The notes below the pieces were generated by a model. That model was given only the letters and a program-made list of their open reading frames with translations. It made no database searches and had not been told where the DNA came from. Source: an uncultured Gammaproteobacteria bacterium (lineage in GTDB: Bacteria > Patescibacteriota > Patescibacteriia > SG8-24 > DYFX01). From it: a stretch of 27,299 nucleotides of DNA. Each line of letters begins with the position of its first letter. The stretch's first letter is position 1. The DNA lies in assembly GCA_964553975.1 (NCBI GenBank), contig CAZKMF010000122.1, forward strand, positions 1 through 27,299. The letters run 5' to 3'. Positions 7,966-10,578 of this stretch are shown one piece after another. Position numbers and translations under genes: made by a program.

Positions 7966-8015
7966 AGTCACCAGGGTCTAGCAAAAGTGACGAATTTCTG
8001 GCAAGCTCCGTGTAC

Positions 8016-9353
8016 ATGGCGACCTTCACCAAAAGCTGGATTGGCTACGATCTGCCCGTCGACGCGATCGAATCGCACTCGGCAGTGCGCACGCTACGCG
8101 CGCAGGGGATCGAAAAGCGCGGCACGCGAGAGTTCCACCTTCTCTTGGCGTATTTTGATGCGATTGAAATCGAAACGCTCGGCGCGCTCTTGGCTCAAGC
8201 CGAAGCCGAAACGTCCTTTACGTTCGGCGAAACGCCGCTCGTCTTCGACGGCTACGGTTTGATCGATTCCCCGGCGGGAAAGTACGCCTACTTTTCTCCC
8301 GCGAGCGGTGGAGCGAAAGCGGCCGGTGAATTGAAAGCGCGCCTCGTCGCGTTACCTGCGTACGACGCCGCCAAAAACTGCCGCGACCTGCACGTCACGA
8401 TCGGCGGCGTCGATCCGCTTTCCGTCGACAAACCGAAACGTGGTCCGCTTAAGCAACCCTTCGAAGCGAAAGGGCGCTTGGCGTTCGTTGGTTTCGACGG
8501 CAAAACGTACCGCGTATTTTTTTGGAACTCGGCCTCGAAGACGTTCGTCGAGGAAAAACCGGTTGTTGAAGATTTGAAAATTGTCGTTGAGAAGCCGGTT
8601 GAAGAAAAGAAAATCGTGGTTGAAGAAAAACCCGCGGTTGTTGAGGAGAAAAAAACGATTGTCGAAGAGGTGAAAACGAAGGTTGAAGAAAAGCCTCAGA
8701 TCGTTGAAGTTGAAGACGCAAGTTTCGTTGTGCAAGAACAATCGCCGGTCGTTGAAGCGCCGAAGCCGATCGTTGAAGAAAAACCGGTTGTCGTCGAAGA
8801 AAAAAAACCAGAAGTGAAACTGGAAGAACCCAAGCCGGCTGAGCCGACGCCTGTAGCGGAAACGAAGCCGGTGCAGCCGTCAGCCCTCACAAAAACGCTG
8901 ATTCTGCCGACGAAGGTCATGCCGGATGCGGCCTGCGCCGTTTATTTGTTGCGTGCGTACGGTTCCAAGATTTTCCCGGGTGCCGCCGAAGCCGCGATTG
9001 TCTTCGCGCACGAAGTGCCTGCCGGAAAATCCGCCGAAGAGCTCGTCAAAGAGGGTGCGCTGTTCATTGAACGCCGCGGAGAATGCGCCTCGATGGCGTT
9101 CGCGAAAATGCTTTCCGTGGCCGAACGACCCGAACTCAAAAAGTTGCTCGCGTTCGCCAAGCGCGACTTTGAAAAGAAGGGGACGCTTTCCACTGATCCG
9201 CTCGATCGCACCTTCGGCCTGACGGGAGTCGCGATGATGATGAACCGCGTTTATTCCGACGATCCACGTGCTGTTTTGGAATTTTTAGTGTCCGTCTTTG
9301 AAGCCCACGTCTACGACGAAATCCGCCGCCCTGCCGAACCCCGCCAGGCTTGA
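8016..9353 (+). CDS. hypothetical multidomain protein: 2H-phosphoesterase-like domain, P/E/V/K-rich linker, degenerate DHH/MYG1-like C-terminal domain
   Basis: His motifs FHLLLAYF (H41) and LHVTIGG (H126) are 85 aa apart, as in 2H enzymes. About 110 aa of VEEK-rich linker follow. The C-terminus LPTKVMPDAACAVYLLR...KGTLSTDPLDRTFGL resembles a DHH-like family I recall from Parcubacteria. Confidence 0.6.
   Translation: MATFTKSWIGYDLPVDAIESHSAVRTLRAQGIEKRGTREFHLLLAYFDAIEIETLGALLAQAEAETSFTFGETPLVFDGYGLIDSPAGKYAYFSPASGGAKAAGELKARLVALPAYDAAKNCRDLHVTIGGVDPLSVDKPKRGPLKQPFEAKGRLAFVGFDGKTYRVFFWNSASKTFVEEKPVVEDLKIVVEKPVEEKKIVVEEKPAVVEEKKTIVEEVKTKVEEKPQIVEVEDASFVVQEQSPVVEAPKPIVEEKPVVVEEKKPEVKLEEPKPAEPTPVAETKPVQPSALTKTLILPTKVMPDAACAVYLLRAYGSKIFPGAAEAAIVFAHEVPAGKSAEELVKEGALFIERRGECASMAFAKMLSVAERPELKKLLAFAKRDFEKKGTLSTDPLDRTFGLTGVAMMMNRVYSDDPRAVLEFLVSVFEAHVYDEIRRPAEPRQA
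8547..8880 (+). repeat. degenerate coding repeat (V)VEEK(P/K), titin-PEVK-like low complexity
   Basis: Recurrent GTTGAAGAAAA-like units encode VEEKPVVEDLKIVVEKPVEEKKIVVEEKPAVVEEKK... Confidence 0.85.
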
Positions 9354-9378
9354 CAAAAGCCTGTTTTTGTGCTATCTT
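9350..9378 (+). promoter_or_regulatory. strong promoter TTGACA-N17-TATCTT (extended -10 TGc); the -35 contains the stop codon of the upstream gene
   Basis: Read directly. TGA 9351-9353 lies inside TTGACA. Confidence 0.85.
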
Positions 9379-9450: not shown

Positions 9451-10515
9451 ATGGGAACTCGCAGCCTGTTCGTTGGTGATCTCGAGGCCGTGAACTTCGA
9501 CAAGGTGTCTCTCATGACCGTGCACCTCGTGCACGTGCTGAAGGCTTCGCTGAACGAGATCGAGATCGTCACCACCCCCACCGCCGAGACGTTCGACGTC
9601 GACGCCTTCTTCAACCGCGAGTGGCCGGAGCACCGGCGCTCGATGACCGAGGTCTACGCGCGCGAGCACGGGCTCGGTTCGACCGACGCTTCGGGGATCG
9701 CGCTCGTCACGAGCGAGATCCGCGGCCTGCCCTCCCTCTGCTACGCGCTGGCCAAGAACCACGGCAAGGTCAAGGGCATCAGCGGCGGCCACCTCTACCA
9801 GAAGGGGCTCGTCCCGAACGTCGCCCGCAACCTGCCGCTCCTGAAGGACGAGGCGCCGGCGCTCATCCTCAAGCTGATCAAGGCGATCGCCTCGATCCTG
9901 CGCGAGGAGGACTTCGAGGACAAGCTCTTCGCTCTCTCCACCACCAAGGAGTGGACGGCGATCTCCGATCGCCTCAGCCGCGCCGAGCAGGCCGTGTACA
10001 CCATGGCCCGCAAGATGGCGGTCGAGCTGCAGGCCAACGGCGAGTGCGAAGGCGCGCACCTCTTCAACCTGAAGAACGGGCGCGCTGGCGAGCTCGGTCT
10101 CTTCCTCGAGACCCGGGACCCGAACCTGATGAAGCACATGTGGGCGGCGCTCAACACGCTCCAGACGCCCGTCGCGGTCGCGCTCGTGTGCCACCCGGAC
10201 ACGGGCCGCGTCGCGATCCTCACCGCGAAGAACTTCGGGGTCAACCTGAAGCCGGTCGCGGACGTGTGTGCGACGAGCTGGAAGGGCGCGAAGTTCGACT
10301 TCAACGCCTCGTCCAACCGCCTGATCTGGGATCCGCGCTTCACCAAGGAGCGCGGCCCGACTCCGGCGGAGCTCAAGTCGGTCGTGACGCTCCACGTCAC
10401 GACCCGCGCCCCGCAGCACCGCGCGACGTTCCAGCAGGCCCCGACCGGCATGAGGGCGTCGATCGGCGACCTCATGAAGGCCAAGGGCCCCGTGGTCGTC
10501 ACCAAGCGCAGCTAG
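9451..10515 (+). CDS. hypothetical protein, possibly a degenerate DHH/DHHA-like paralogue
   Basis: AAGGAGG SD and extreme GC3 codon bias support coding. The C-terminal VAVALVCHPDTGRVAILTAKNFGVNLKPVA resembles a DHHA-type lobe. No DHH triad is present. Confidence 0.6.
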   Translation: MGTRSLFVGDLEAVNFDKVSLMTVHLVHVLKASLNEIEIVTTPTAETFDVDAFFNREWPEHRRSMTEVYAREHGLGSTDASGIALVTSEIRGLPSLCYALAKNHGKVKGISGGHLYQKGLVPNVARNLPLLKDEAPALILKLIKAIASILREEDFEDKLFALSTTKEWTAISDRLSRAEQAVYTMARKMAVELQANGECEGAHLFNLKNGRAGELGLFLETRDPNLMKHMWAALNTLQTPVAVALVCHPDTGRVAILTAKNFGVNLKPVADVCATSWKGAKFDFNASSNRLIWDPRFTKERGPTPAELKSVVTLHVTTRAPQHRATFQQAPTGMRASIGDLMKAKGPVVVTKRS

Positions 10516-10541
10516 AGCTGCGCGACTCAGTCGGAACACAG

Positions 10542-10578
10542 CGCCCTCCCGAAACTCTTCGGGAGGGCGTTTACTTTT
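10542..10578 (+). terminator. intrinsic terminator of the 9451 gene
   Basis: CGCCCTCCCGAA-actc-TTCGGGAGGGCG followed by TTTACTTTT. Confidence 0.85.

What the first reader, a model, noticed from the sequence alone, without database searches (positions are those of the whole stretch)
8016..9353. Unusual architecture: 2H-phosphoesterase-like domain, PEVK-like spacer, and a DHH-like domain lacking its DHH motif
Seen: H41 in FHLLLAYF and H126 in LHVTIGG, 85 residues apart, with an intervening LVFDGYG strand. Established: 2H enzymes (LigT/ThpR, phage Acb1, CPDases) use two Hx(T/S) motifs at this spacing to cleave 2',3'-cyclic phosphates, 2'-5' links or cyclic oligonucleotides. Here motif 1 is HLL (Thr lost), so it may be half-degenerate. 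After about 110 aa of P/E/V/K linker comes LPTKVMPDAACAVYLLR...KGTLSTDPLDRTFGL. From memory this resembles a DHH/MYG1-like family common in Parcubacteria, but where DxGGG..DHH is expected the sequence reads FIERRGECAS. Inference: two nucleotide-phosphoester folds on a long flexible tether, possibly a nucleotide or RNA-end sensor, scaffold or sponge rather than an enzyme. I do not recognise this fusion.
Basis: partly seen in the sequence, partly recalled or inferred. Interest (0 to 1): 0.7.

Follow-up and report, generated by a model that had tools for sequence, protein, structure and literature searches.

The report
Degenerate 2H–MYG1-like tethered pseudo-phosphoesterase
This gene of an ultra-small (Patescibacteria) bacterium encodes a well-conserved but probably catalytically crippled copy of a two-enzyme RNA/nucleotide-end-processing fusion: a 2H phosphoesterase fold missing one key threonine, a 112-residue floppy spacer, and half of a MYG1-type DHH nuclease that has lost its DHH loop and substrate lobe and now looks like a dimerisation module.

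Summary
Window 8016-9353 (+) is a real 445-aa gene. Its closest homologues have no Pfam, NCBIfam or PDB sequence match.

- **N-domain:** residues 1-180 model as a 2H phosphoesterase, closest to E. coli ThpR/LigT (Z 10.6). H41 and H126 sit at the ThpR H43/H125 positions. Motif 1 reads HLL, not HxT.
- **Linker:** residues 180-291 are 75% P/E/V/K.
- **C-domain:** residues 292-445 are the N-lobe of an unnamed DHH-superfamily family whose nearest fold is MYG1. A 16-residue deletion removes the DHH loop, the motif II Asp is Glu, and the whole DHHA1-like lobe is missing.

Intact "long" paralogues (HVT, HLS, DHH, both lobes) exist in the same genus. One genome carries both forms on one contig. This genome has only the short form. 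The short forms are one clade nested among long forms.

Both domains are under strong purifying selection (dN/dS 0.04-0.08). The C-domain is predicted to homodimerise (0.85 against 0.12 for the best control). 2H and MYG1-like modules are fused repeatedly, in both orders.

Best reading: a dimeric pseudo-enzyme that reads or scaffolds RNA or nucleotide ends, comparable to archaeal RecJ4. Function is inferred, not shown. The scan had already noted this MYG1-like family and a PEVK-linker homologue on other DNA.

The parts
8016..9353 (+). Whole gene, 445 aa plus stop (P0001): the 'short form' 2H / PEVK linker / half MYG1-like protein
   Evidence: ORF and translation. 16 homologues. The ATG start matches homologue N-termini.
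8016..8555 (+). N-domain, residues 1-180: 2H phosphoesterase fold
   Evidence: AF2 pLDDT 89.6. Foldseek top 50 are all 2H enzymes, LigT at E 1.8e-5. VIA Z 10.6, rmsd 4.0, 151 aligned to 4qak/5ldm. dN/dS 0.04-0.08.
8136..8144 (+). Motif 1, H41-L42-L43: His kept, Thr/Ser lost (HVT in long paralogues)
   Evidence: Alignment A1. hhalign places H41 on ThpR H43 and on the HITL motif of Pfam-verified 2H domains. ThpR T45A is inert.
8391..8399 (+). Motif 2, H126-V127-T128: intact Hx(T/S)
   Evidence: Invariant His, with T or S in all 16 homologues.
8553..8888 (+). Linker, residues 180-291: 112 aa, 75% P/E/V/K, net charge -10, no DNA tandem repeat
   Evidence: Composition. TRF finds nothing. Short forms have 103-130 aa linkers, long forms 17-54 aa. 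dN/dS 0.14-0.21.
8889..9350 (+). C-domain, residues 292-445: N-lobe only of an unnamed MYG1-like DHH-superfamily module, matching profile positions 5-166 of 324
   Evidence: Profile hit at E 7e-43 covering 5-166 of 324. 136 cluster representatives. Intact paralogue model against MYG1 and DHH enzymes. Atlas model of this domain: TM 0.70 to a cluster in which 17% of members carry MYG1_exonuc, 0.53 to an archaeal RecJ cluster. dN/dS 0.04-0.06.
9069..9074 (+). E352-R353: site of the 16-column deletion that removes the LGxxRFDHH loop. E352 replaces the motif II Asp.
   Evidence: Alignments A1 and A5. MYG1 with DHH mutated to ALL is inactive (PMC6582341).
9141..9326 (+). Residues 376-437: predicted homodimer interface, including the invariant KGTLSTDPLDRTFGL block (G401-G401 and D397-D397 contacts)
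   Evidence: complex prediction on two copies: score 0.85, best control 0.12. The mark was reached by 20 of 30 proteins solved as pairs and 1 of 23 solved as single chains. Runs agree in at least 97% of contacts; pLDDT 90. 11 of 31 conserved columns lie in the interface, odds ratio 3.0, p 0.014.
9345..9373 (+). Terminator-like hairpin plus T-run overlapping the stop codon. The gene looks monocistronic.
   Evidence: Consensus scan only.

Best explanation
The gene encodes a conserved, probably non-catalytic (pseudo-enzyme) paralogue of a bifunctional 2H / MYG1-like phosphoesterase.

**Ancestral long form.** It joins a ThpR-like 2H domain, which opens 2',3'-cyclic phosphate ends, to an intact two-lobed MYG1-like DHH enzyme, which trims or dephosphorylates 3' ends. 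It most likely processes RNA or nucleotide 3' ends in two steps.

**Derived short form.** After duplication, one copy changed in four ways:
- it lost the proximal Thr of the 2H active site;
- it lost the DHH loop;
- it lost the whole substrate-binding DHHA1-like lobe;
- it gained a ~110-residue P/E/V/K spacer.

**What remains.**
- A 2H pocket with both histidines. This is inferred to still bind a cyclic or terminal phosphate on a nucleotide or RNA end, but to turn it over poorly or not at all.
- A half DHH domain whose most conserved surface is predicted to form a symmetric homodimer.

**How I think it works.** A dimer presents two end-binding 2H heads on long flexible tethers. It would act as a reader, protector or scaffold for RNA ends or RNA-decay partners rather than as an enzyme, much as non-catalytic RecJ4 scaffolds RecJ3 and aRNase J in Haloferax.

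**Shown:** folds, residue losses, paralogy, selection.
**Predicted:** dimerisation.
**Inferred:** ligand, loss of activity, scaffold role.
For: **2H fold.**
- AF2 model pLDDT 89.6.
- Foldseek top 50 are all 2H enzymes.
- VIA gives Z 10.6 to ThpR/LigT over model residues 2-172, aligned to chain residues 3-173.
- H41 aligns to the motif-1 His.

**Motif 1.** It reads H-L-[L/V/H/Q] in all short forms and HVT in long forms. In ThpR, H43A and T45A are inert while T127A is benign (PMC4201822).

**C-domain.**
- It covers profile positions 5-166 of 324 only.
- A 16-column deletion removes the DHH loop, the motif II Asp is Glu, and one Asp of RDD is lost.
- The intact module (pLDDT 93.9) has MYG1 as top AFDB hits (E 5e-6, TM 0.45-0.56). 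All top 50 PDB hits are DHH enzymes.
- The MYG1 DHH mutant is inactive (PMC6582341).

**Paralogy and single origin.**
- G005 has the long form, a beta-CASP RNase and the short form on one 8.5-kb contig.
- This genome has only the short form.
- The short forms form one clade (100/99) nested among long forms.

**Still functional.** dN/dS is 0.04-0.08 in both domains.

**Dimer.** Score 0.85 against a best control of 0.12. The mark was reached by 20 of 30 proteins solved as pairs and 1 of 23 solved as single chains. Runs agree in at least 97% of contacts and pLDDT is 90. Conserved columns are enriched in the interface.

**Functional link of 2H and MYG1-like.** Pfam-significant 2H domains are fused N-terminal (P0026 at 7e-15, P0036) and C-terminal (P0051, P0057, P0061, P0064, P0052) to the module.

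**Precedent.** RecJ4 lacks active-site residues, has a large disordered region and bridges RecJ3 to aRNase J (PMC10470531). Sister short forms are followed by a beta-CASP RNase gene.
Against: - No biochemical data exist for any member.
- Both catalytic histidines and 56 other N-domain positions are invariant between short and long forms. The 2H domain may therefore still be an enzyme.
- The effect of losing the Thr is extrapolated from ThpR. Other 2H enzymes tolerate loss of a motif hydroxyl (Cpd1 distal Ser, ThpR T127A).
- The short C-domain keeps D304, E352, D384, D394 and D397, so some metal or ligand binding cannot be excluded.
- The dimer is a prediction made with my own alignment. The tool's calibration counts hold only roughly, and DHH-family dimers exist in the PDB.
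- The beta-CASP neighbour is absent from this window's clade. Here the neighbour is the orphan at 9451-10515, and the only beta-CASP gene in the genome is a 28%-identical one on another contig.
- I could not measure the H41-H126 distance in the model, because coordinates are not exposed. Juxtaposition is inferred from the full-length superposition on ThpR.
Confidence: 0.55

Rival explanations
1. It is still an active 2H phosphodiesterase, for example a 2',3'-cyclic phosphodiesterase with a variant HxL/HxT site. Only the DHH half has become a passive dimerisation and tether module, giving a homodimeric single-activity enzyme.
For: H41 and H126 are invariant and the distal HVT is intact. 56 N-domain positions are invariant across short and long forms, including K6, K34, K107, R109, K120, R123, K139 and K141. 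dN/dS is 0.04-0.08. Some 2H enzymes tolerate loss of a motif hydroxyl.
Against: The lost residue is the proximal Thr, and ThpR T45A is inert. Position 43 is unconstrained among short forms (L, V, H, Q). The stacking aromatic at H+5 (Y46) is T or S in the sister short-form clade. That pattern fits relaxed catalytic constraint on this strand.
Confidence: 0.3
2. It works as one subunit of a hetero-complex with the neighbouring orphan (9451-10515). That orphan would be a full-length, DHH-less, fast-evolving MYG1-like relative, matching the 'active plus DHH-less partner' gene pairs seen elsewhere in Patescibacteria.
For: The neighbour is conserved next to the gene in the three closest genomes. Language-model features place it with ChrB_C / MYG1-like clusters (0.92-0.94). 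A weak collinear match covers the DHHA1-like lobe: hhalign E 0.005 at probability 7%, hmmsearch 8 bits for P0156. Earlier scan notes describe such pairs.
Against: The homology is not established at any accepted threshold. The other seven short forms lack this neighbour. The two genes have separate promoter-like and terminator-like signals. No interaction was tested.
Confidence: 0.15
3. It is a sponge or decoy for signalling nucleotides (cyclic oligonucleotides, 2'-5' oligoadenylate-like), acting as counter-defence in the manner of Acb1-type 2H proteins without the hydrolysis.
For: The 2H fold also matches phage Acb1 and viral 2'-5' PDEs (Z 8.1-8.5). The catalytic motif is degenerate while the pocket is kept.
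Against: There are no PADLOC or PHROGs hits. The gene sits at a stable chromosomal locus between dprA/topA and pth in all relatives and shows slow, purifying evolution. ThpR/LigT-type cellular enzymes score higher than the viral ones.
Confidence: 0.07
4. It is a decaying gene remnant with no function.
For: Catalytic residues are lost in both domains and the C-terminal lobe is truncated.
Against: dN/dS is 0.04-0.08 in both domains. The same truncated architecture is kept in 10 proteins at 58-88% identity, forming one clade. The frame is intact.
Confidence: 0.03

Closest known systems
E. coli ThpR/LigT (RNA 2',3'-cyclic phosphodiesterase) and the wider 2H phosphoesterase superfamily
   Same: Same fold over the whole N-domain (Z 10.6, 151 residues). 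The two histidines sit at matching positions (H41/H126 against H43/H125). The distal HxT is present, and there is an aromatic at H+5 (Y46 against F48).
   Different: The proximal Thr is replaced by Leu. There is no Arg at the ThpR R130 position (Gly131). This protein has no Pfam 2H hit, and its paralogues score only below threshold. It is fused to a linker and a DHH-type remnant.
MYG1 / UPF0160 (Pfam PF03690), a 3'-5' RNA exonuclease of the DHH superfamily
   Same: The intact paralogous module gives MYG1 proteins as best full-length structural matches (E 5e-6, TM 0.45-0.56). It has the same two-lobe design with a DHH motif.
   Different: Even intact relatives have no PF03690 sequence match, so this is a separate unnamed family. 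The window's copy has no DHH, Glu for the motif II Asp, and no C-terminal lobe.
Haloferax volcanii RecJ4 in the RecJ3/RecJ4/aRNase J complex (PMC10470531)
   Same: It is a DHH-superfamily paralogue lacking active-site residues, with a large disordered region, that acts as a scaffold with a beta-CASP RNase. Sister short forms are encoded next to a beta-CASP RNase.
   Different: This is an analogy only. The DHH subfamily differs, RecJ4 has no 2H domain, no interaction is shown here, and this window's clade lacks the adjacent beta-CASP gene.
Non-catalytic 2H domains (AKAP18 central domain; 2H-like subunits of kinetoplastid mitoribosomes)
   Same: The 2H fold is used for nucleotide binding or as a structural part. 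They appear among the structural hits.
   Different: AKAP18 keeps both HxT motifs. There is no sequence relationship beyond the fold.

Membership tests
2H phosphoesterase superfamily | Bilobed 2H alpha+beta fold | tested here: met
   AF2 pLDDT 89.6. All top 50 Foldseek hits are 2H proteins. VIA gives Z 10.6, rmsd 4.0 and 151 of 174 residues aligned to LigT.
2H phosphoesterase superfamily | Two Hx(T/S) motifs | tested here: not met
   Motif 2 (H126-V-T) is present. Motif 1 is H41-L-L, so the hydroxyl residue is absent. Long paralogues have HVT and HLS.
2H phosphoesterase superfamily | Match to a curated sequence model (PF13563, PF02834) | tested here: not met
   No hit for P0001 at E up to 10. 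Paralogues score E 0.02 to 9e-5, below the gathering score. hhalign against Pfam-verified fused 2H domains gives 45% probability, E 2e-4.
2H phosphoesterase superfamily | Cyclic phosphodiesterase or 2'-5' phosphodiesterase activity | not testable with these tools
   This needs an enzyme assay.
DHH phosphoesterase superfamily | DHH-type N-lobe fold | tested here: met
   The intact paralogue module hits only DHH enzymes in the PDB (NrnA at 4.5e-5, PggH, GdpP, PPase II, RecJ). The Atlas model of this very domain gives TM 0.70 to a cluster in which 17% of members carry MYG1_exonuc, and 0.53 to a RecJ cluster. Sequence homology of the window's domain to the intact module is E 7e-43.
DHH phosphoesterase superfamily | Motif III (Asp-His-His) | tested here: not met
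   Removed by a 16-column deletion between E352 and R353.
DHH phosphoesterase superfamily | Motif II Asp and the full acidic metal cluster | tested here: not met
   The motif II Asp is Glu352 and one Asp of RDD is deleted. D304, D384, D394 and D397 are kept.
DHH phosphoesterase superfamily | C-terminal DHHA1/DHHA2-type substrate lobe | tested here: not met
   The protein ends at profile position 166 of 324. That lobe in the paralogue matches DHHA1 lobes at Z 7-8 and rmsd about 3 A.
MYG1 / UPF0160 (PF03690) | Match to the family model | tested here: not met
   No PF03690 hit for the window's protein, long paralogues or stand-alone relatives. The resemblance is structural only.
RecJ4-like non-catalytic DHH scaffold | Physical bridging of an active DHH paralogue and a beta-CASP RNase | not testable with these tools
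   Only gene adjacency in sister genomes is seen. No interaction was tested.

The most novel reading that the evidence does not exclude
Patescibacteria evolved a dimeric, catalytically dead 'RNA-end reader' from a previously undescribed bifunctional 2H / MYG1-like 3'-end healing-and-trimming enzyme. Two cyclic-phosphate-binding 2H heads on entropic-spring tethers would capture or shield 2',3'-cyclic-phosphate or phosphate-ended RNAs and recruit or restrain RNases, working like RecJ4. More broadly, the recurrent 2H plus MYG1-like fusions would imply that MYG1-type exonucleases work downstream of cyclic-phosphate opening.
Probability: 0.3. Interest if true: 0.7.

Novelty: new variant of a known kind. 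Interest (0 to 1): 0.55.

Why it matters
**Link between two enzyme families.** MYG1 is conserved from bacteria to humans, yet its substrates and partners are poorly defined. Here a MYG1-like module is fused again and again, in both orders, to 2H cyclic phosphodiesterases. That points to a shared pathway on 2',3'-cyclic-phosphate or phosphate-ended RNA or nucleotides. My searches of the open literature found no paper linking the two.

**A dated enzyme-to-pseudo-enzyme case.** The window's gene shows one duplication, loss of defined catalytic elements in both domains, gain of a long disordered tether, and continued strong purifying selection. It can be tested directly against its intact paralogue.

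**Relevance to the organism.** Reduced, host-dependent bacteria rely on nucleotide salvage and RNA turnover. Such proteins may be part of how they handle RNA ends.

Tried and rejected
- **Direct family searches on P0001.** Pfam, NCBIfam and PDB sequence searches on the whole protein (Pfam and NCBIfam also on each half) gave nothing meaningful, only low-complexity linker hits.
- **Profile searches against PDB.** A2 and A3 profiles gave only chance hits.
- **PADLOC and PHROGs.** No hits, so no support for a defence or phage origin.
- **Tandem repeats.** TRF on the linker DNA found none, so the linker is compositional and not a recent DNA repeat.
- **Split-gene idea.** I asked whether the missing DHHA1 lobe is encoded by the next ORF. 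BLASTP found nothing. hhalign gave 7% probability and hmmsearch gave at most 8 bits. This is inconclusive, and all short forms end at the same place, so truncation is ancestral to the clade.
- **Orthology idea.** I first read the long and short forms as orthologues because of shared synteny. I rejected this when G005 showed both on one contig.
- **ThpR against A2 by hhalign.** Only a short low-probability alignment around motif 1, used as a consistency check only.
- **Expression.** No RNA holder is listed among public runs.
- **Beta-CASP partner in this genome.** Only a 28%-identical gene on another contig.
Full report
**1. Observation.**

Window 8016-9353 (+) is an open frame of 445 codons.
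- An in-frame GTG lies at 8010. All homologues start M(A)TFTKSW, so ATG 8016 is the start.
H41 (FHLLLAYF) and H126 (LHVTIGG) are 85 residues apart.
- Residues 180-291 are 112 aa, 75% P/E/V/K, with net charge -10.
- The linker DNA has no tandem repeat.

The protein has no hit in Pfam, NCBIfam or PDB sequences, yet it is not an orphan.
- Sixteen homologues score E 1e-86 to 1e-250. The two that a source names come from Patescibacteria assemblies.
- Its closest relatives show dN/dS 0.04-0.08 in the N-domain, 0.04-0.06 in the C-domain and 0.14-0.21 in the linker.

It is therefore a real, constrained gene.

**2. Two forms of the protein.**

Alignment A1 separates ten "short" proteins of 436-457 aa, including the window's, from six "long" ones of 511-545 aa.

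| Feature | Long forms | Short forms |
|---|---|---|
| Motif 1 | H-V-T | H-L-[L/V/H/Q] |
| Motif 2 | H-L-S | H-[V/L]-T |
| Linker | 17-54 aa | 103-130 aa |
| DHH loop | LLIDLGKSRFDHH present | 16-column deletion between E352 and R353 |
| Motif II acid | Asp | Glu |
| RDD | intact | one Asp lost |
| C-terminal ~155 residues | present | absent; protein ends about ten residues after AH(V/A)(Y/F)DE |

**3. N-domain.**

The AF2 model of residues 1-182 has pLDDT 89.6.
- Every one of the top 50 Foldseek PDB hits is a 2H phosphoesterase: E. coli LigT/ThpR at E 1.8e-5, then Deinococcus CPDase, ASCC1, AKAP18, phage Acb1, CNPase and Usb1.
- VIA-align gives Z 10.6, rmsd 4.0 A and 151 aligned residues to LigT. 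Model residues 2-172 map on chain residues 3-173.
- That mapping puts H41 and H126 at the positions of ThpR H43 and H125.
- hhalign places H41-L-L on ThpR H43-L-T and on the HITL motif of Pfam-verified 2H domains (45% probability, E 2e-4).
- N-domains of paralogues score just under the Pfam threshold for PF13563 (E 0.02 to 9e-5).

In ThpR the extended motifs are 43-HxTxxF-48 and 125-HxTxxR-130. H43A and T45A are inert, while T127A is benign (PMC4201822).
- The window's protein has lost exactly the proximal hydroxyl.
- That position varies among short forms.
- The H+5 aromatic (Y46 here) is T or S in the sister short clade.

So the fold and both histidines are kept, but the proximal catalytic strand looks relaxed. 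I could not read model coordinates, so H41-H126 juxtaposition rests on the superposition and not on a measured distance.

**4. C-domain.**

A full scan of 1.84 billion representatives with residues 285-445 found 136 clusters. Most contain DHH, at about residue 70 of a ~320-aa stand-alone protein or about residue 200-300 of a fusion.

The family's intact module (alignment A3) has these invariant positions:
- motif I Asp;
- motif II Asp;
- DHH;
- RDD;
- GxGxxSxDxxD;
- a C-terminal W...NGG.

It has no Pfam or PDB sequence match.

Its AF2 model (pLDDT 93.9) gives three lines of structural evidence:
- Only DHH enzymes appear in the PDB hits: NrnA 4.5e-5, PggH, GdpP, family II pyrophosphatase, RecJ and NrN.
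- MYG1 proteins are the best full-length AFDB/Swiss-Prot matches (E 5e-6 to 1e-4, TM 0.42-0.56).
- Its C-lobe superposes on DHHA1 lobes (Z 7-8, rmsd about 3 A).

The window's domain matches only profile positions 5-166 of 324 (E 7e-43). The Atlas model of this very domain aligns at TM 0.70 to a cluster in which 17% of members carry MYG1_exonuc, and at 0.53 to an archaeal RecJ cluster. Human MYG1 with DHH changed to ALL is inactive (PMC6582341).

The C-domain is therefore the N-lobe of an unnamed MYG1-like DHH-superfamily family. It lacks the DHH loop and the substrate lobe, so phosphoesterase activity is very unlikely.

**5. Evolution.**

Both forms lie between dprA/topA and pth, which first suggested orthology. 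A profile search across the order shows otherwise.
- Within the same genus, 4 genomes have only the long form and 5, including this one, have only the short form.
- Four genomes have neither.
- G005 has both on one 8.5-kb contig: pth, long form, a 173-aa gene, a beta-CASP RNase, then the short form.

The two forms are paralogues. This genome has one copy of each module, both in this gene.

A tree of the shared N-domain puts all short forms in one clade (100/99), nested beside long forms P0013 and P0014 (94/97). That means one duplication followed by one degeneration. Independent DHH losses also occur elsewhere in the family, in P0023 and P0030.

At E 1e-10 or better the module occurs in 20 of 301 sampled genomes of the phylum.

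**6. The fusion is recurrent.**

- N-terminal extensions of other members are Pfam-significant 2H domains: P0026 LigT_PEase at 7e-15 and P0036 at 1e-12.
- C-terminal extensions of others are too: P0051, P0057, P0061 and P0064 at 1e-7 to 3e-12, and P0052 as tRNA_lig_CPD.

Different 2H subfamilies fused in both orders argue for a functional coupling of 2H and MYG1-like activities. The searches pairing MYG1, or DHH plus fusion, with '2H phosphoesterase' found no paper linking the two.

**7. What the remnant may do.**

Two copies of residues 285-445 are predicted to form a symmetric dimer.
- The score is 0.85 in three runs, against 0.12 for the best control.
- The mark was reached by 20 of 30 proteins solved as pairs and 1 of 23 solved as single chains.
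- The runs agree in at least 97% of contacts, and pLDDT is 90.
- My own alignment was used, so these counts hold only roughly.

The interface (residues 376-437) contains the family's most conserved block, KGTLSTDPLDRTFGL, with G401-G401 and D397-D397 contacts. Conserved columns are enriched in it: 11 of 31, odds ratio 3.0, p 0.014. This would explain why the block survives after the catalytic loop was lost. The model supports dimerisation but does not show it.

**8. Mechanism proposed.**

- *Long form (inferred):* the 2H domain opens a 2',3'-cyclic phosphate and the MYG1-like domain trims or dephosphorylates the 3' end.
- *Window's short form (inferred):* a dimer of two 2H heads that bind but hardly turn over such ends. 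They are held on ~110-residue flexible tethers from a dimeric half-DHH core, which acts as a reader, protector or scaffold.

A precedent is Haloferax RecJ4. It is a DHH paralogue without active-site residues, has a large disordered region, and bridges RecJ3 and the beta-CASP aRNase J (PMC10470531). In the sister short-form clade the next gene is a beta-CASP RNase carrying Lactamase_B, Beta-Casp and RMMBL domains.

In this window's clade the next gene is instead the orphan at 9451-10515. Its link to the MYG1-like family is only a lead.

The main rival is that the 2H domain is still an enzyme. Both histidines and many basic residues are invariant. An activity assay would decide between the two.

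**9. Verdict.**

- Function remains inferred.
- I rate it a new variant of known kinds: the 2H and DHH/MYG1 superfamilies, in pseudo-enzyme form.
- Earlier notes of this scan already recorded the unnamed MYG1-like family, DHH-less partners and a PEVK-linker homologue on other genomes.
- What this window adds is the 2H fusion and the doubly degenerate, truncated paralogue.

Noticed in passing
window 9451-10515 (+): The neighbouring 354-aa orphan (P0002) has only four homologues. It evolves fast (dN/dS 0.53-0.67), yet its dS (about 0.2) is far below the 0.5-0.65 of the adjacent gene. It has its own promoter-like site (9350-9378) and a strong terminator-like hairpin (10540-10571). Language-model features and a weak collinear match suggest a DHH-less MYG1-like relative, but no accepted threshold is reached.
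   Followed up: partly
L007 (G005 contig C39) 3755-8543: One genome of the same genus carries pth, the intact long form, a 173-aa unknown gene, a beta-CASP RNase and the short form in a row. This looks like the undivided ancestral arrangement of the locus.
   Followed up: partly
L001 7457-8884 and L007 6544-8022: A beta-CASP metallo-beta-lactamase RNase (Lactamase_B, Beta-Casp, RMMBL) directly follows the short form on the same strand in the sister clade. The window's genome has only a 28%-identical beta-CASP gene on another contig (L010).
   Followed up: partly
proteins P0023 and P0030 (representative library): Catalytic motifs have degenerated independently in other members of the MYG1-like family. 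In P0030, DHH is DRQ, the motif II Asp is Asn and RDD is KDV. In P0023, DHH is DL plus a deletion.
   Followed up: no
genomes G013-G033 (sister family, same order), e.g. G019:C46:34548-35036: Many genomes of the sister family have 270-350-aa ORFs that match only the first ~110-175 positions of the MYG1-like profile (E 1e-6 to 1e-11). They may be half-domain or ChrB_C-like relatives. ChrB_C (PF09828) also appears as a weak Pfam and feature match to the N-lobe.
   Followed up: no
window 9345-9378 (+): A terminator-like hairpin overlaps the stop codon of the gene, and a -35/-10-like pair for the next gene overlaps the hairpin. The two units are packed very tightly.
   Followed up: no
L008 4131-5162 and L009 4175-5162: In the closest relatives a HAD hydrolase gene and a NADAR-domain gene follow pth. 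NADAR points to ADP-ribose-related chemistry. I did not check whether the window has the NADAR gene.
   Followed up: no
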